Positions 1 to 51,083 of a DNA stretch of 52,416 nt are shown here, piece after piece. The stretch lies in the IMG/VR virus record IMGVR_UViG_2896589216_000005; one strand, written 5' to 3'. Position numbers and translations under genes: made by a program. How positions within the stretch are numbered: the stretch's first letter is position 1; each line of letters begins with the position of its first letter. The notes under the pieces were generated by a model. That model saw only the letters and a list, made by a program, of their open reading frames with translations. It was not told where the DNA came from and searched no databases. The stretch is from a virus (lineage: Duplodnaviria > Heunggongvirae > Uroviricota > Caudoviricetes).

Positions 1-1131
1 TCAAATGACCAGTTTTTTCCATTCCTTACCGCGTGCGTCGTTGTAAATATCGGTCATTTTTTGATTCGAATGGCCTAGCAAAATTTTGGTATCAACCCCC
101 TGCTCTCTGAACAATCGCTCTGATAAAGATCTCTGCTCATGGAAAGAGGGAGGGGTGCCATTAGCACGCCAGTTGTAATCCACAGAATCCCGGGCTTTTT
201 TAAATGCAACGGTTAATGTTGCTGGCTTAACCATCCCGCCGCGCTTAGCTGTCCCTTTCGCGTGATGGTGGTGCAATAGCCACGGACTAAGAACGCAATC
301 GCGGCAGGATGACACCACATCATCCAGGGTGAGATTTAATTTATCGCAACGCAGAGCCAGAGGGATGGCAATCCGGGTTCCTGTTTTTTGCTGTTCGACA
401 TGAAGATAACCATCCCGGATATCCGAAAATTGCATTTTGCAAATATCTGAAAGGCGCTGGCCTGTCATCAGTGCCAGCAGCATACCGCGCTGTAAAAAGT
501 AACCATCCTTTTCCGCTGCGTTATAAATCATCATCCACTCATCAAAAGTCAGTCGCTGTCTTGATATCCGCACCTGCGGTTTTTTTGCCGATTCTGCAGG
601 GTTAAAGCCTGGCGGGACATCGCCCGTTTGCTGAGCTTCCCGGAAAACATCGATCAGTACTTTCCTGAAAATTTGTCCCATTCTGTTATGTCCTCTGGCC
701 TTGTACTCTTCCAGTACTGATACCACATCTTTTACGGTTATGACATCTAACGGTCTGGTGCCAAAACGTTCATCAAATACCCTGAGAGGGGCCGCTTTCT
801 GTTTCAGCGTGTTGAGTTTGATCTCGCCGTTTTCATATCTTTCCTGTTGAATTTTTCTGTAATTATTCAGAAAAATGGTAACGGTTGATGAACCGCCGGT
901 ATCACTAATAATTTTCTCCTGCAGACTGCGCATTTGTTCCATTTGCTGCCGGGCAAGACGGCTGTTCGCTTCTGCTGCAATAGTTTCTGCCAGTTTCTGG
1001 TCAATACTGCCGAGACCGTGATTTTTGCCTGTTATGGGATGCCTGTAACGCCAGTAAACTTTGTTATTTCTTTTATCAAAATACGGAGATAATCCCGGAA
1101 CATCGGTTTTATATTTTCGCGGGCGCGCCAT
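1..1131 (-). CDS. int: Phage integrase (tyrosine recombinase), 376 aa
   Basis: Six-frame ORF; lambdoid integrase-like sequence, followed on the same strand by an excisionase-like ORF; sits at prophage left end. Confidence 0.88.
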   Translation of the reverse strand: MARPRKYKTDVPGLSPYFDKRNNKVYWRYRHPITGKNHGLGSIDQKLAETIAAEANSRLARQQMEQMRSLQEKIISDTGGSSTVTIFLNNYRKIQQERYENGEIKLNTLKQKAAPLRVFDERFGTRPLDVITVKDVVSVLEEYKARGHNRMGQIFRKVLIDVFREAQQTGDVPPGFNPAESAKKPQVRISRQRLTFDEWMMIYNAAEKDGYFLQRGMLLALMTGQRLSDICKMQFSDIRDGYLHVEQQKTGTRIAIPLALRCDKLNLTLDDVVSSCRDCVLSPWLLHHHHAKGTAKRGGMVKPATLTVAFKKARDSVDYNWRANGTPPSFHEQRSLSERLFREQGVDTKILLGHSNQKMTDIYNDARGKEWKKLVI

Positions 1132-5315: not shown

Positions 5316-5368
5316 GGGCGGCAGAGCAGTCACGGAGTAAAACTGATACCGCCAAACGTCACCAGAAA
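5316..5368 (-). ncRNA. dicF: DicF small regulatory RNA (53 nt) followed by U-tract
   Basis: Reverse complement of 5316-5368 reads UUUCUGGUGACGUUUGGCGGUAUCAGUUUUACUCCGUGACUGCUCUGCCGCCC followed by UUUUU, matching the DicF sequence as recalled. Confidence 0.88.
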
Positions 5369-6401: not shown

Positions 6402-6809
6402 TTACTGATGTTTGTTACGTTTGCGAGCTTCTAGTAGCTCGGTGAATAGGCGATTAAAATTCTCAACGCGGGCACGGAGTTCGCTGATTTGTGCTTGCTG
6501 CTCTGATTTTGGAAGTGCGCGATACAATCGCAACATCTCCAACTCATCTTCCGATAAGTCTAAGGCGCTGTTGAGTGCTACTGGTGGATCTGGTGTTTTA
6601 TCCTCGTCACCAAACAGTATCCAAGTTGGTGAACATTGCAATACCTCAGCCAGGCGATGCAAATTTTGCCCGCGCGGGGCTGTATGGTCGCTTTCCCATA
6701 GTGAAATTGATGAGCCAGATACGCCAGCGGCTTTGCTTAAATCGTTTTGACTTAAACCAACCTGTTTGCGTCTTTCTCTAATTCGTTGACCTAAAGTTTT
6801 CTCGTTCAT
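6402..6809 (-). CDS. dicA: DicA-like HTH repressor (XRE family), 135 aa
   Basis: N-terminal HTH (QRIRERRKQVGLSQNDLSKAAGVS) and LQCSPTWILFGDEDK segment match DicA; divergent from a Cro-like gene. Confidence 0.85.
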   Translation of the reverse strand: MNEKTLGQRIRERRKQVGLSQNDLSKAAGVSGSSISLWESDHTAPRGQNLHRLAEVLQCSPTWILFGDEDKTPDPPVALNSALDLSEDELEMLRLYRALPKSEQQAQISELRARVENFNRLFTELLEARKRNKHQ

Positions 6810-13094: not shown

Positions 13095-13293
13095 CGACTT
13101 TTACCAGAGAGCAGTTAATAGCTCACGCAGAGGAGACTATTGAAGCACAGAGACTGTGCATACCGGGCACAATCGACCATGACATCATCCGCACATATAA
13201 GATAGACTGGCCCCCTGAATCTCCAGACAACCAGTATCACTTAAATAAGTGATAGTCTTAATACTAGTTTTTAGACTAGTCATTGGAGTACAG

Positions 13294-13659
13294 ATGATTG
13301 ATGTCTTAGGGCCGGAGAAACGCAGACGGCGTACCACACAGGAAAAGATCGCAATTGTTCAGCAGAGCTTTGAACCGGGGATGACGGTCTCCCTCGTTGC
13401 CCGGCAACATGGTGTAGCAGCCAGCCAGTTATTTCTCTGGCGTAAGCAATACCAGGAAGGAAGTCTTACTGCTGTGGCCGCCGGAGAACAGGTTGTTCCT
13501 GCCTCTGAACTTGCTGCCGCCATGAAGCAGATTAAAGAACTCCAGCGCCTGCTCGGCAAGAAAACGATGGAAAATGAACTCCTCAAAGAAGCCGTTGAAT
13601 ATGGACGGGCAAAAAAGTGGATAGCGCACGCGCCCTTATTGCCCGGGGATGGGGAGTAA
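13294..13659 (+). CDS. insC: IS2 InsC (orfA)
   Basis: 121-aa ORF from [14 protein letters not shown]6G slippery site before stop. Confidence 0.9.
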
Positions 13660-14522
13660 GCTTAGTCAGCCGTTGTCTCCGGGTGTCGCGTGCGCAGTTG
13701 CACGTCATTCTCAGACGAACCGATGACTGGATGGATGGCCGCCGCAGTCGTCACACTGATGATACGGATGTGCTTCTCCGTATACACCATGTTATCGGAG
13801 AGCTGCCCACGTATGGTTATCGTCGGGTATGGGCGCTGCTTCGCAGACAGGCAGAACTTGATGGTATGCCTGCGATCAATGCCAAACGTGTTTACCGGAT
13901 CATGCGCCAGAATGCGCTGTTGCTTGAGCGAAAACCTGCTGTACCACCATCGAAACGGGCACATACAGGCAGAGTGGCCGTGAAAGAAAGCAATCAGCGA
14001 TGGTGCTCTGACGGGTTCGAGTTCTGCTGTGATAACGGAGAGAGACTGCGTGTCACGTTCGCGCTGGACTGCTGTGATCGTGAGGCACTGCACTGGGCGG
14101 TGACTACCGGCGGCTTCAACAGTGAAACAGTACAGGACGTCATGCTGGGAGCGGTGGAACGCCGCTTCGGCAACGATCTTCCGTCGTCTCCAGTGGAGTG
14201 GCTGACGGATAATGGTTCATGCTACCGGGCTAATGAAACACGCCAGTTCGCCCGGATGTTGGGACTTGAACCGAAGAACACGGCGGTGCGGAGTCCGGAG
14301 AGTAACGGAATAGCAGAGAGCTTCGTGAAAACGATAAAGCGTGACTACATCAGTATCATGCCCAAACCAGACGGGTTAACGGCAGCAAAGAACCTTGCAG
14401 AGGCGTTCGAGCATTATAACGAATGGCATCCGCATAGTGCGCTGGGTTATCGCTCGCCACGGGAATATCTGCGGCAGCGGGCTTGTAATGGGTTAAGTGA
14501 TAACAGATGTCTGGAAATATAG
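13617..14522 (+). CDS. insD: IS2 InsD (orfB transposase, DDE)
   Basis: 301-aa ORF in the -1 frame relative to insC. Confidence 0.9.
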
Positions 14523-14766
14523 GGGCAAATCCAAAGATGGATATTGCTGTTCTGGAAATCGCACTGGTATCGCTGGCAGCAGAGCCAGCCGGTAAATTGC
14601 ATGAATACAAACCAGTGGGATATCAGCGTCTGGTCGATGAGTTAACCATGCTGGTAAAGCAGTTAACCTGGCAACTGAGGAAAGCGAAGCCAGACTGCAA
14701 ATTACCGGATAAGGCGATGAGTTATCTGGAGCGGAACGGACTGATAAGCGTGGAGGATATTTTACG

Positions 14767-14850
14767 ATGACCTGGCCTGAAGCATTAACAACGGTAGGAA
14801 TTGCGATGGCGGTGGCGCTGGTGGTGTATTCGATTTGCCGCTGGGGATAA
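14767..14850 (+). CDS. Possible 27-aa hydrophobic peptide
   Basis: ATG overlaps the upstream stop (ATGA); product MTWPEALTTVGIAMAVALVVYSICRWG; too short to be confident. Confidence 0.25.
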   Translation: MTWPEALTTVGIAMAVALVVYSICRWG

Positions 14851-15061
14851 AAACGGTTTGCGGGAAAAGGAGAGTTAAGTAGAATTGCAGCGGGTGCTTG
14901 AGGCTATCTGTCTCAGGCATGAACACCAAAAGGCAGATAGAGAAAAGCCCCAGTTAACATTACGCGTCCGGCAAGACGCTTAACATTAATCTGAGGCCAT
15001 ATCTATGCTCTACACACGTAGGTTAGCCTCTTACGTGCCGAAAGGCAAGGAGAAGCAGGCT

Positions 15062-15217
15062 ATGAAGCAGCAAAAGGCGATGCTAATCGCCCTGATCGTC
15101 ATCTGTTTAACCGTCATTGTGACGGCACTGGTAACGAGGAAAGACCTCTGCGAGGTACGAATCCGAACCGGCCAGACGGAGGTCGCTGTCTTCACAGCTT
15201 ACGAACCTGAGGAGTAA
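15062..15217 (+). CDS. hok: Hok/Gef-family membrane toxin (51 aa)
   Basis: MKQQKAMLIALIVICLTVIVTALVTRKDLCEVRIRTGQTEVAVFTAYEPEE matches the Hok family signature (closest recalled member HokD/RelF). Confidence 0.8.
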   Translation: MKQQKAMLIALIVICLTVIVTALVTRKDLCEVRIRTGQTEVAVFTAYEPEE

Positions 15218-15285
15218 GAGACCCGGCGAGGGAGAAATCCCTCGCCACCTCTGATGTGGCAGGCATTCTCAACGCACCCGCACTT

Positions 15286-15318
15286 AACCCGCTTCGGCGG
15301 GTTTTTGTTTTTATTTTC
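15286..15318 (+). terminator. Rho-independent terminator after hok
   Basis: GC hairpin CCCGCTTCGGCGGG followed by T-run. Confidence 0.5.
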
Positions 15319-15433
15319 AACGCATTTGAAGTTCTGGACGGTGCCGGAATAGAATCAAAAATACTTAAGTAGCGCGCAGGGATAAGAGGGATGGTCCCTT
15401 AAAGGGGAGAGCTAATTATCCGGAAGGATTCTG

Positions 15434-15685
15434 ATGATGAACATCGAAGAGCTGCGTAAAATTTTTTGTGAAGATGGCCTCTATGCTGTGTGCGTTGAAA
15501 ATGGAAATATTGTTAGTCATTACCGCATTGTGTGTTTGCAAAAAAATGGGGCTGCGTTAATTAATTTTGTGGATGCCCGAGTGACGGACGGATTTATCTT
15601 GCGCGACGGTGAGTTTGTCACTTCATTACAGGTATTGAAAGAGATCGGAATAAAAGCTGGCTTTTCTGCTTTTTCAGAAGAATAA
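15434..15685 (+). CDS. Hypothetical protein, 83 aa (Rem-like by position and size)
   Basis: ORF between hok and the DUF968 gene, as rem is in Qin. Confidence 0.45.
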   Translation: MMNIEELRKIFCEDGLYAVCVENGNIVSHYRIVCLQKNGAALINFVDARVTDGFILRDGEFVTSLQVLKEIGIKAGFSAFSEE

Positions 15686-19956: not shown

Positions 19957-20032
19957 GGCCCTTTAGCTCAGTGGTGAGAGCGAGCGACTCATAATCGCCA
20001 GGTCGCTGGTTCAAATCCAGCAAGGGCCACCA
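19957..20032 (+). tRNA. ileZ: tRNA-Ile2 (anticodon CAU, lysidine type; ileZ-like)
   Basis: 76-nt cloverleaf by hand folding; anticodon loop CUCAUAA; near-identical to recalled ileX; encodes 3-prime CCA. Confidence 0.85.
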
Positions 20033-20039
20033 TCACATA

Positions 20040-20116
20040 CCGCCATTAGCTCATCGGGATAGAGCGCCAGCCTTCGAAGCTGGTTGCGCGGGGTTCGAGT
20101 TCTCGATGGCGGTCCA
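20040..20116 (+). tRNA. argO: tRNA-Arg (anticodon UCG)
   Basis: 77-nt cloverleaf by hand folding; anticodon loop CUUCGAA; T-loop TTCGAGT; encodes CCA. Confidence 0.78.
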
Positions 20117-20373: not shown

Positions 20374-20570
20374 ATTGTCTGGCTGCCGGAGAATTTGTTA
20401 AAAATTACATCGCATGGTGAATCCCCCTCAGCGGCGGGGCATCTGGCAAAGTGTATGATCCAGAGAACATGCAAATTCAGTAGACAGGCTGAATTTACCG
20501 GGAGGCACCTGGCACCATGCGACAGACAGAAATTAGGCTATACTTCAGCCCCTCTCCGGAGGGGCTTTTC
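20374..20570 (+). repeat. Structured direct-repeat unit A (about 200 bp) ending in an 8-bp GC hairpin plus T-run
   Basis: Shares conserved blocks with unit B; terminal hairpin AGCCCCTC-TCCG-GAGGGGCT followed by TTTTCT. Confidence 0.5.
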
Positions 20571-20842
20571 TGTGCAGGATGTGTCACAGTTTCCTGAATT
20601 CTGAGTACTGTCCTGTTACTCAGGGTGCTATATTTTCTGACGTGATGAAAGTCTGCCGGAAGGCGGAACGTATCGGAAATGACCCAGTAGAGAAAACGTT
20701 GACTCAGATACCGATGCTGAGTTACCGGGAAACCGGCATCACATGACCGCTATCCTTCCAGGCTCGCTCCGGCGGGCCTTTTTACTGCAGAAAACAGTTT
20801 TCCCGTAAAATGCTACGTTGCTCATAATTCAGGCTGGCGATT

Positions 20843-21035
20843 ATTGTCTGGCCAGCGGGAAGTTTGTTAAAAAATTTCGCATGGTGAATCCCCCTGTGCG
20901 GAGGGGCAATCAGCGAGTAGGTATATGGGATAATCGCGGATTCAGGTGCTGGTACTGAATTCACCGGGAGGCACCCGGCACCATGCAATGGCACATAGCG
21001 CCACTCTCCAGCCCCTCTCCGGAGGGGCTGTTTAT
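20843..21035 (+). repeat. Structured direct-repeat unit B
   Basis: Same block order as unit A, 469 bp downstream; identical terminal hairpin. Confidence 0.5.
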
Positions 21036-21064
21036 ATTGATTTTGTCAGATGTGAGTAAACTCC

Positions 21065-50499: not shown

Positions 50500-51083
50500 T
50501 GGCATTCAGAATGAGTGAACAAGCACGGACCATAAAAATTTATAATCTGCTGGCCGGAACTAATGAATTTATTGGTGAAGGTGACGCATATATTCCGCCT
50601 CATACAGGTCTGCCAGCAAACAGTACCGATATTGCACCACCAGATATTCCTGCTGGCTTTGTGGCTGTTTTCAACAGTGATGAGGCATCGTGGCATCTCG
50701 TTGAAGACCATCGGGGTAAAACGGTTTATGACGTAGCGTCAGGGGACGAGTTATTTATTTCTGAACTCGGTCCGTTACCGGAAAATGTTACCTGGTTATC
50801 GCCGGAAGGGGAGTTTCAGAAGTGGAACGGCACAGCCTGGGTGAAGGATACGGAAGCAGAAAAAATGTTCCGGATCCGGGAGGCGGAAGAAACAAAAAAC
50901 AACCTGATGCAGGTAGCCAGTGAGCATATTGCGCCGCTTCAGGATGCTGCAGATCTGGAAATTGCAACGGAGGAAGAAACCTCATTGCTGGAAGCCTGGA
51001 AAAAGTATCGGGTGTTGCTGAACCGTGTTGATACATCAACTGCACCTGATATTGAGTGGCCTACGAACCCTGTCAGGGAGTAA
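50499..51083 (+). CDS. tfa: Tail fiber assembly protein Tfa
   Basis: 194-aa ORF near-identical in pattern to lambda Tfa; start overlaps the stf stop (TAATG). Confidence 0.92.

What the first reader, a model, noticed from the sequence alone, without database searches (positions are those of the whole stretch)
14767..15320. Hok-family toxin without adjacent relBE
A 51-aa Hok/Gef toxin lies between the IS2-disrupted gene and the rem-like ORF, followed by a fold-back hairpin and a terminator. The upstream 290 bp should hold any mok and sok elements but no relBE-like pair is present, so how this copy is controlled is unclear.
Basis: partly seen in the sequence, partly recalled or inferred. Interest (0 to 1): 0.45.

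Follow-up and report, generated by a model that had tools for sequence, protein, structure and literature searches.

The report
Complete hokD/sok toxin–antisense locus in prophage
This is an ordinary, fully equipped hok/sok toxin–antitoxin cassette in a Qin-like lambdoid prophage, controlled by its own antisense RNA and mRNA folding; the relBE neighbours seen in E. coli K-12 are a K-12-type rearrangement, not something missing here.

Summary
A 51-aa Hok protein (15062-15217) is present, 100% identical to E. coli K-12 HokD. It lies between an IS2-split gene and a rem homologue, and no relBE occurs anywhere in the window.

The puzzle about its control is answered by the upstream 170 nt, which carry the whole canonical hok/sok apparatus:
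- A weak hok promoter and an mRNA 5' end at 14892 (tac element).
- An in-frame mok ORF (15005-15217).
- A 71-nt antisense Sok gene on the minus strand (15013→14943), with promoter hexamers identical to the experimentally mutated sokW promoter of Stx2 phage Sp5.
- A 3' fold-back element (fbi, 15267-15279) that pairs with the 5' end, followed by a terminator.

Rfam's sok model scores 117 bits against a gathering score of 59. Removing the fbi in silico switches the 5' end to the ucb pairing, as in plasmid R1.

K-12 hokD shares homology only from window 15048 onward. There relBE has replaced the leader, and the Rfam model finds nothing.

At least 80% of this locus is present in 2965 of 5426 complete E. 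coli genomes, against 1165 with the relE-hokD junction.

Verdict: already known and correctly annotatable as hokD/sokD, an orthologue of hokW-sokW. Low interest.

The parts
14858..14885 (+). hok promoter: -35 TTGCGG (14858-14863), 16-nt spacer, -10 TAGAAT (14880-14885); inferred transcription start at G14892
   Evidence: Sequence checked. A -10 hexamer (TAGAAT/TAGGAT/TACAAT/TATGAT/TATAAT/TATCAT) sits at the same distance from the conserved mRNA 5' end in 11 loci, including R1-type plasmids. The weak -35 fits the weak hok promoter described for R1 (my knowledge of the Gerdes-lab work). Transcription was not measured.
14892..15310 (+). Full-length hok mRNA (about 419 nt): leader, mok/hok coding region, 3' UTR
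   Evidence: The 5' end is position 1 of the Rfam RF01794 match. The 3' end is the intrinsic terminator. MFE is -169 kcal/mol, z = -6.2 against shuffles, and 5' and 3' ends are paired. Covariation in 8 hokD-type loci: 10 pairs changed on both sides, versus 3.7±1.4 in shuffles (0 of 500 reach it) and 0-4 in slid controls.
14892..14903 (+). tac (translational activator) element, GGGUGCUUGAGG
   Evidence: It pairs with fbi 15267-15279 in the full-length fold and with ucb 14945-14951 once the 3' end is removed. The R1-type tac GGCGCUUGAGG pairs with its own fbi CUGAAGCGCC, a compensatory U-A to C-G change.
14904..14940 (+). 5' leader hairpin (CUAUCUGUCU.../...GGCAGAUAG); 14910-14920 can alternatively pair with tac (metastable nascent hairpin)
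   Evidence: Folds. Two compensatory pairs occur in this helix among hokD-type loci (helix 2).
14945..14951 (+). ucb / anti-SD box (AAGCCCC): can pair with the mok SD region in the closed form and with tac in the 3'-trimmed form
   Evidence: Truncated folds (to 15268 or 15260) pair 14892-14899 with 14945-14951. The same helix is the outer stem of the Rfam consensus. The element names follow the R1 description in PMC9841398.
14943..15013 (-). Sok antisense RNA gene (71 nt): 15-nt single-stranded 5' tail, long imperfect hairpin (14998-14946 as folded; the outermost pair is a G-U wobble), U4 tail (14946-14943)
   Evidence: Coordinates were transferred from the annotated sokW misc_RNA of phage VT2-Sakai through a 92.7%-identical alignment. 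Fold: -28.6 kcal/mol, z = -5.4. The hairpin base is conserved, with one A-U to G-C compensatory pair across 10 loci including R1-type and Aeromonas. SokW RNA was detected by northern blot and shown to be antitoxic (PMC8621323).
15020..15048 (-). sok promoter: -35 TTGCCT (15048-15043), 17-nt spacer, -10 TAACCT (15025-15020), 6 nt to start G15013
   Evidence: The + strand over both promoter hexamers and the spacer (15020-15048) is identical to Sp5 sokW. Primers YO-421/422 of PMC8621323 replace exactly this -10 (TAGGTTA to CCGGCTC on the + strand) in the 'pro-less' mutant, which lost antitoxin activity. It aligns column for column with the R1-type sok promoter TTGCGC-17-TATCCT. The simple consensus scan missed it because the -10 matches only 3 of 6.
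14993..15217 (+). mok: SD GAGG (14993-14996), ATG 15005, 70-codon ORF in frame with hok and sharing its stop
   Evidence: ORF list and translation. The arrangement matches the annotated mokW/hokW pair, which share one stop. The mok start and the 12 nt between SD and ATG, up to 2 nt short of the SD, lie inside the Sok-complementary stretch.
15062..15217 (+). hok (hokD-type) toxin gene, 51 aa; SD AAGGAG within 15046-15054
   Evidence: Pfam HOK_GEF 82.9 bits; PHROG 251 114.7 bits; 100% identical to K-12 HokD. PGAP names the identical protein WP_000813254.1 HokD. HokD is listed among Hok peptides previously shown to be toxic and used as assay controls (bioRxiv 10.1101/2025.08.07.668861).
15200..15203 (+). 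TadA A-to-I editing motif UACG on the Tyr47 codon (would recode Tyr to Cys)
   Evidence: Sequence. It sits in the heptaloop UUACGAA flanked by CAG/CUG. The region is identical to K-12 hokD, whose mRNA is reported edited at this Tyr at low level, about 6% (PMC5630033, PMC12214031). Editing of this copy was not tested.
15225..15246 (+). 3' UTR hairpin GGCGAGGGA-GAAA-UCCCUCGCC, the likely exonuclease stop and stabiliser of the processed mRNA
   Evidence: Folds. Three pairs show compensatory changes among hokD-type loci (helix 19). The role is inferred from the equivalent R1 hairpin (PMC9841398).
15253..15264 (+). dcb-like box: pairs with the region between the mok SD and start codon (14996-15003) and, in the full-length form, with ucb 14947-14949
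   Evidence: Pair lists. This is the least conserved helix (73% of cells paired, helix 6), so the assignment is tentative.
15267..15279 (+). fbi (fold-back inhibition) element UCUCAACGCACCC, complementary to tac with one bulge
   Evidence: 12 pairs to 14892-14903 in the MFE. Duplex energy is -19.8 kcal/mol. An equivalent site 44-59 nt after the stop occurs in 10 of the 11 loci; p13C1065T, whose 3' UTR diverges, has only a weaker non-equivalent match at 65 nt.
15286..15312 (+). Intrinsic terminator of hok mRNA (stem AACCCGC-UUCG-GCGGGUU plus U run)
   Evidence: Terminator scan. The sequence is identical in K-12.

Best explanation
The region is an intact hokD-type hok/mok/sok type I toxin-antitoxin cassette (about 14858-15312) in the nin region of a Qin-like lambdoid prophage.

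Proposed mechanism, by analogy with R1 hok/sok and Sp5 hokW-sokW:
1. A weak promoter makes a stable 419-nt hok mRNA. Its 5' tac element is locked to the 3' fbi element, so neither ribosomes nor Sok can engage.
2. Slow 3' trimming removes the fbi. tac then pairs with ucb instead and exposes the mok ribosome-binding site.
3. Hok is translated only through coupling to mok.
4. The 71-nt Sok RNA, made from a convergent promoter inside the mok/hok leader, base-pairs across the mok start region. This blocks mok (and hence hok) translation and targets the duplex for RNase III.
5. When Sok synthesis stops, for example on loss of the element or on prophage induction as shown for SokW, the pool of processed hok mRNA is translated and the membrane toxin kills or lyses the cell.

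What is shown here: every sequence element, the predicted conformational switch and the covariation. What is inferred: transcription, processing, toxicity in this host and the biological role.
For: - Protein family: Pfam HOK_GEF 82.9 bits and PHROG 251 114.7 bits; identical to K-12 HokD.
- Leader: Rfam RF01794 covers 14892-15067 over the full model at 117.1 bits (gathering score 59, E 1.7e-27). K-12 relBE-hokD and a relBE-hok plasmid give no hit with the same model.
- Folding: the full-length fold pairs tac with fbi (z = -6.2). Truncation at 15268 or 15260 switches tac to ucb and leaves 3 of 4 mok SD bases unpaired.
- Covariation: 10 doubly changed pairs versus 3.7±1.4 in shuffles and 0-4 in slid controls. 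tac and fbi co-vary between hokD-type and R1-type loci.
- Sok: 71 nt with a free 5' tail, hairpin and U tail, z = -5.4. Its promoter hexamers are identical to sokW, whose -10 mutation abolished antitoxin activity, and align with the R1-type sok promoter.
- Distribution: the locus is present at >=80% coverage in 2965 of 5426 complete E. coli genomes and is annotated hokD.
Against: - No expression data exist for this copy.
- Both promoters are weak by consensus. The sok -10 matches 3 of 6 and was missed by the scan.
- NCBIfam Hok models score below their curated cut-offs (48.5 versus 73).
- Chromosomal hokA, hokB and hokC loci tested earlier did not give post-segregational killing or rifampicin activation (summarised in bioRxiv 10.1101/2025.08.07.668861), so an intact architecture does not guarantee activity.
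- The dcb pairing is poorly conserved (helix 6).
- The structure tested for covariation was derived from the window sequence itself, which favours it.
Confidence: 0.88

Rival explanations
1. The cassette is structurally intact but physiologically silent: a conserved passenger that is transcribed and permanently repressed, with no killing, maintenance or lysis role in this host.
For: Earlier tests of native chromosomal hok loci found no post-segregational killing and no rifampicin activation (as summarised). K-12 hok homologues are described as inactivated. The prophage already carries an IS2 insertion nearby, which hints at decay.
Against: All regulatory elements and both ORFs are intact and under visible structural constraint. 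The 92.7%-identical hokW-sokW is active and halves Sp5 phage release when deleted. Decayed copies look quite different, for example the Salmonella remnant in L007.
Confidence: 0.25
2. Hok here is controlled mainly from outside the cassette. Read-through transcription from upstream (the phage early-right operon or IS2) would act as relBE-promoter transcription does for relF in K-12. This is the nearest workable version of the first reader's idea.
For: hok is co-oriented with the upstream replication and nin genes and with DUF968, RusA and Q downstream. No terminator was predicted between the upstream genes and hok. In K-12, relF is co-transcribed with relBE (PMC3598666). HokW production depends on RecA-mediated prophage induction, by an unexplained route.
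Against: The cassette has its own promoter with a conserved -10 at a fixed distance from a conserved 5' end. The tac element works only as a 5' terminus pairing with fbi. The cassette occurs in different contexts and orientations, including after Q in PhiR12_3, in P1-like plasmids and at the right end of Sp5. External transcription therefore cannot be its general control. IS2 now lies between the early operon and hok.
Confidence: 0.1
3. Chance ORF or decayed remnant: the Hok-like ORF is not a functional gene.
For: The ORF is very short.
Against: Pfam E 1.2e-23; 100% identity to HokD; Rfam E 1.7e-27; thousands of conserved copies.
Confidence: 0.01

Closest known systems
hokW-sokW (mokW) of Stx2 prophage Sp5 / VT2-Sakai, E. 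coli O157:H7
   Same: 92.7% DNA identity over 93% of 14850-15320. The order of elements is the same, mok is in frame, Sok is 71 nt with the same extended hairpin, and the sok -35, spacer and -10 and the tac, ucb and fbi sequences are identical. [quoted passage not shown]
   Different: The Hok C-terminus differs (FTAYEPEE here, FVDYESEK in HokW). Six of the 15 unpaired 5'-tail positions of Sok differ, so cross-repression may be limited. Sp5 lacks the terminator sequence seen here after the fbi. The Sp5 copy sits at the right end of the prophage, not in the nin region.
hokD (relF) of the relBEF operon, Qin cryptic prophage, E. coli K-12
   Same: The Hok protein is identical. Homology is continuous from window 15048 through hok, the 3' UTR (fbi and terminator retained), rem and ydfU, 89.5% over 2 kb. 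The prophage type is the same, with a DicA-like repressor and DicF in the window.
   Different: K-12 lacks the hok promoter, tac, ucb, the sok gene and promoter and the mok start. relB-relE occupy that position and there is no Rfam sok hit. K-12 hokD is transcribed from the relB promoter and is regarded as inactivated by rearrangement.
hok/sok (parB) of plasmid R1 and related IncF plasmid loci
   Same: All named elements and the two-state mRNA mechanism are shared. An R1-type IncF locus (L009) hits the same Rfam model at 88.9 bits, has matching promoter positions, and its tac and fbi co-vary with those here.
   Different: Hok identity is about 43%. R1 Sok is shorter, lacking the 16-nt hairpin extension. 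R1 is plasmid-borne with a demonstrated post-segregational killing role.

Membership tests
hok/sok (Hok/Gef) type I toxin-antitoxin family | Small Hok/Gef-family membrane toxin ORF of about 50 aa | tested here: met
   Pfam PF01848 82.9 bits versus cutoff 22; PHROG 251; identical to HokD. NCBIfam Hok models are below cut-off.
hok/sok (Hok/Gef) type I toxin-antitoxin family | Overlapping upstream mok reading frame with its own SD, through which hok is translated | tested here: met
   ATG at 15005 preceded by GAGG (14993-14996). The 70-codon ORF shares its stop with hok, as annotated for mokW/hokW. Coupling itself was not tested.
hok/sok (Hok/Gef) type I toxin-antitoxin family | Cis-encoded antisense Sok RNA gene (promoter, 5' tail, terminator hairpin) overlapping the mok translation start | tested here: met
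   Minus strand 15048-14943: promoter identical to the functionally mutated sokW promoter, aligned with the R1-type promoter, with a stable hairpin and U tail. The leader matches Rfam RF01794 at 117 bits.
hok/sok (Hok/Gef) type I toxin-antitoxin family | Long-range tac-fbi pairing that closes the full-length mRNA | tested here: met
   12 pairs between 14892-14903 and 15267-15279 in the MFE. The pairing is kept in 7 of the 8 hokD-type loci, 95.8% of cells paired (helix 1); p13C1065T's divergent 3' UTR supplies the unpaired cells. There is a compensatory change against R1-type loci.
hok/sok (Hok/Gef) type I toxin-antitoxin family | Alternative tac-ucb pairing after 3' processing that frees the mok SD | tested here: met
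   In silico only. Folds truncated at 15268 or 15260 pair tac with 14945-14951 and leave 14992-14995 unpaired. The same helix is in the Rfam consensus.
hok/sok (Hok/Gef) type I toxin-antitoxin family | Toxicity of Hok, neutralisation by Sok, unstable Sok versus stable hok mRNA | not testable with these tools
   Only indirect evidence: HokD is listed among Hok peptides previously shown to be toxic and used as assay controls, and HokW/SokW were tested.
relBEF operon (type II RelBE with downstream relF/hokD) | relB and relE immediately upstream of hok, and co-transcription from the relB promoter | tested here: not met
   tblastn with K-12 RelB and RelE finds nothing in the window (best E 1.9). 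Homology to K-12 begins only at 15048.

The most novel reading that the evidence does not exclude
In this nin-region copy, Hok release could be wired to prophage induction by transcriptional interference. Antiterminated early-right transcription running through the cassette would collide with, or occlude, the convergent sok promoter and deplete the short-lived Sok. This would supply one possible route for induction-triggered loss of Sok, the step left unexplained for SokW, although it cannot be the Sp5 route, where hokW lies outside the early-right operon. The IS2 insertion 360 bp upstream (13203-14533) would then be a natural insulator that uncouples this copy from induction. Nothing here tests this. 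The Sp5 copy lies outside the early operon, which argues against it as a general mechanism.
Probability: 0.08. Interest if true: 0.4.

Novelty: already known. Interest (0 to 1): 0.1.

Why it matters
It matters little beyond correct annotation. The locus should be labelled as a complete hokD/mokD/sokD type I toxin-antitoxin cassette, and the unannotated Sok RNA (15013→14943, minus strand) should be added.

It is a useful reminder that K-12 hokD (relF), the textbook copy, is the rearranged exception. Intact Qin-like prophages such as this one show the state before relBE displaced the sok/mok leader.

Tried and rejected
- The sigma-70 consensus scan of 14500-15500 found neither the hok nor the sok promoter. 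Both were located by homology instead.
- An exact-match scan of genome contigs for the IS2/target junction found nothing, so the source strain was not identified.
- The sub-threshold isrK hit on the hok 3' UTR (26.6 bits against a gathering score of 50) was followed into a Salmonella prophage locus (L007). That locus has no isrK hit and turned out to be a decayed hok remnant. I treat the isrK resemblance as a shared hairpin-spacer-terminator shape and leave it unresolved.
- NCBIfam gave only below-cut-off Hok hits.
- relBE-dependent control was rejected because no relBE is present and the native control elements are all there.
- The large protein-database, structure-prediction and metagenome tools were not used, because the family assignment was already unambiguous.

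Full report
**What is at the coordinates**

The window is a full-length lambdoid prophage. It carries an integrase (1-1131, minus strand), an exonuclease-like gene, a DicA-type HTH repressor (6402-6809, minus strand) and the DicF RNA (5316-5367, minus strand). It also has replication and nin genes, DUF968/YdfU, RusA, antiterminator Q, a DNA methylase, two tRNAs, terminase and tail protein J. It is therefore an intact relative of the K-12 cryptic prophage Qin.

The Hok ORF is at 15062-15217 (+) and encodes MKQQKAMLIALIVICLTVIVTALVTRKDLCEVRIRTGQTEVAVFTAYEPEE.
- It matches Pfam HOK_GEF at 82.9 bits (cutoff 22, E 1.2e-23).
- It matches PHROG 251 'MokW-like host killing' at 114.7 bits.
- It is 100% identical to K-12 HokD.
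- NCBIfam Hok models hit only below their cut-offs.

- IS2 is 13203-14533, 1331 bp with inverted ends. Removing it plus 4 nt recreates a 114-aa ORF identical to an uninterrupted gene in E. coli 300709.
- The 83-aa ORF at 15434-15685 is identical to K-12 Rem at 77 of 83 residues.
- No RelB or RelE homologue is present anywhere in the window.

**The control elements are all there**

Rfam's sok family (RF01794) matches 14892-15067 on the + strand over the full model, at 117.1 bits against a gathering score of 59 (E 1.7e-27). The model runs from the conserved GGGUGCUUGAGG to the hok AUG. In effect it describes the hok mRNA leader, with Sok encoded on the complementary strand. This is my reading of the alignment.

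A -10 hexamer (TAGAAT, 14880-14885) lies 6 nt upstream of that conserved 5' end. A -10-like hexamer sits at the same distance in 11 loci, including R1-type plasmid loci and an Aeromonas plasmid. The -35 (TTGCGG) is poor.

An in-frame mok ORF starts at 15005 behind GAGG (14993-14996) and shares its stop with hok. This is the same arrangement as the annotated mokW/hokW pair of phage VT2-Sakai.

**Sok on the minus strand**

The window is 92.7% identical to the VT2-Sakai (Sp5) hokW locus, where sokW is annotated as a 71-nt antisense RNA. Transferring those coordinates through the alignment gives Sok = 15013→14943.

The upstream elements are -35 TTGCCT (15048-15043), a 17-nt spacer and -10 TAACCT (15025-15020), with 6 nt to the start.
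- The promoter stretch from -35 to -10 is identical to Sp5.
- The primers of Takada et al. (YO-421/422) replace exactly this -10 in the 'promoter-less' construct. That construct lost protection against HokW, and sokW in trans partly restored it (PMC8621323).
- The hexamers also align column for column with the R1-type sok promoter TTGCGC-17-TATCCT.
- The generic consensus scan missed this promoter because the -10 matches only 3 of 6.

The 71-nt RNA folds into a 15-nt free 5' tail, a long hairpin and a U4 tail (-28.6 kcal/mol, z = -5.4). The hairpin base is conserved in 10 loci with one A-U to G-C compensatory pair. The upper 16-nt extension is a feature of the hokD/hokW subgroup.

**mRNA fold-back mechanism**

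The full-length transcript (14892-15310) has an MFE of -169 kcal/mol (z = -6.2). In it the 5' tac element (14892-14903) pairs with 15267-15279, the fbi element.

Removing the 3' end in silico to 15268 or 15260 mimics the roughly 40-nt 3' trimming known for R1 hok mRNA. tac then pairs with 14945-14951 (ucb), and three of the four mok SD bases are left unpaired. This is the conformational switch described for R1 (PMC9841398). An intermediate truncation shows tac pairing with 14910-14920, the metastable nascent hairpin.

On an alignment of eight hokD-type loci, the window's full-length structure is supported by covariation.
- It keeps 93.9% of cells paired.
- It has 10 pairs changed on both sides, against 3.7±1.4 in shuffles (0 of 500 reach it) and 0-4 when partners are slid.
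- The caveat is that the structure came from one of the aligned sequences.

Between hokD-type and R1-type loci, tac (GGGUGC versus GGCGC) and fbi (GCACCC versus GCGCC) change together.

The 3' UTR hairpin (15225-15246) shows three compensatory pairs (helix 19). By analogy with R1 it is the likely exonuclease stop that stabilises the processed mRNA. The terminator is at 15286-15303.

**Relation to K-12 and to relBE**

Homology between the window and K-12 Qin begins exactly at 15048, the hok SD. It runs through hok, the 3' UTR, rem and ydfU, at 89.5% over 2034 nt. Upstream of that point K-12 has relE and relB instead of the leader, and the Rfam model finds nothing there.

The literature agrees. 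relF/hokD is co-transcribed with relBE in K-12 (PMC3598666). It is regarded as inactivated by a rearrangement that removed canonical toxin-antitoxin components (PMC12214031, citing Pedersen and Gerdes 1999).

Absence of relBE is therefore the native state, not a gap. It is also the commoner state.
- 2965 of 5426 complete E. coli genomes carry at least 80% of 14767-15320, annotated hokD.
- 1165 carry the relE-hokD junction.
- Some genomes have both, for example strain 300709 (hits H15 and H68).

**What it most likely does**

By homology with hokW-sokW, Sok represses mok and hence hok translation, partly through RNase III and Hfq. Loss of Sok on prophage induction lets Hok insert into the inner membrane, which advances lysis and phage release. 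A maintenance or post-segregational role, as in R1, is the classical alternative.

None of this is measured for this copy. Native chromosomal hok loci tested earlier were inactive in post-segregational killing assays, so I keep 'intact but silent' as a real rival.

**Verdict**

This is a known system, essentially identical to thousands of annotated copies, and a close orthologue of an experimentally characterised one. The only addition is the annotation of its unannotated RNA parts. Interest is low.

Noticed in passing
L013 (Citrobacter sp. Y3 plasmid NZ_CP050011.1) 1-620: relB-relE and the spacer down to the hok SD/ATG are 99% identical to K-12 relBE. The hok that follows is an R1-type Hok, about 41% identical to HokD, and there is no sok leader. 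The same relBE junction is thus fused to two different hok genes, which suggests recombination at the conserved hok SD box.
   Followed up: partly
window 14767-14850 (+): A 27-aa hydrophobic ORF (MTWPEALTTVGIAMAVALVVYSICRWG) overlaps the stop of the IS2-split 114-aa gene by ATGA and ends 8 nt before the hok -35. It is conserved at DNA level upstream of hokW in Sp5 and identical in strain 300709. It has no family hit. It may be a small membrane protein or a chance ORF.
   Followed up: partly
window 13203-14533: The IS2 copy (insC/insD on the + strand) interrupts a 114-aa nin-region gene. Only 4 nt (AAGA) appear duplicated at the junctions, whereas from memory IS2 usually duplicates 5 bp. The exact junction was not found in one-genome-per-species contigs.
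   Followed up: partly
window 15200-15203: The TadA editing motif UACG sits on the Tyr47 codon of hok in a heptaloop-like context. It is identical to K-12 hokD, which is reported edited at low level.
   Followed up: partly
window 15226-15307 (+); L008 653-733: The hok 3' UTR resembles the Salmonella Gifsy-1 sRNA family isrK at sub-threshold level: 26.6 and 33.2 bits against a gathering score of 50. This could be a shared hairpin-spacer-terminator shape or distant common origin; it is unresolved.
   Followed up: partly
L007 (Salmonella phage ZC-S1_prp) about 480-720: A decayed hok remnant with no start or leader and a frame-disrupted coding region. It still has an fbi-like CCTCAATGTACCC and a terminator.
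   Followed up: yes
window 5316-5367 (-), 20382-20575 (+), 20851-21039 (+), 50842-51040 (+): Other RNA families pass Rfam gathering scores: DicF, two copies of STnc100 downstream of the tRNA pair, and IS009. tRNA-Met is at 19957-20032 and tRNA-Arg(UCG) at 20040-20116.
   Followed up: no
L001 6493-6672 (-), equivalent to window about 15259-15440: RefSeq annotates a 59-aa 'hypothetical protein' on the minus strand across the hok 3' UTR and terminator in E. coli 300709. It is probably a spurious call over structured RNA.
   Followed up: no
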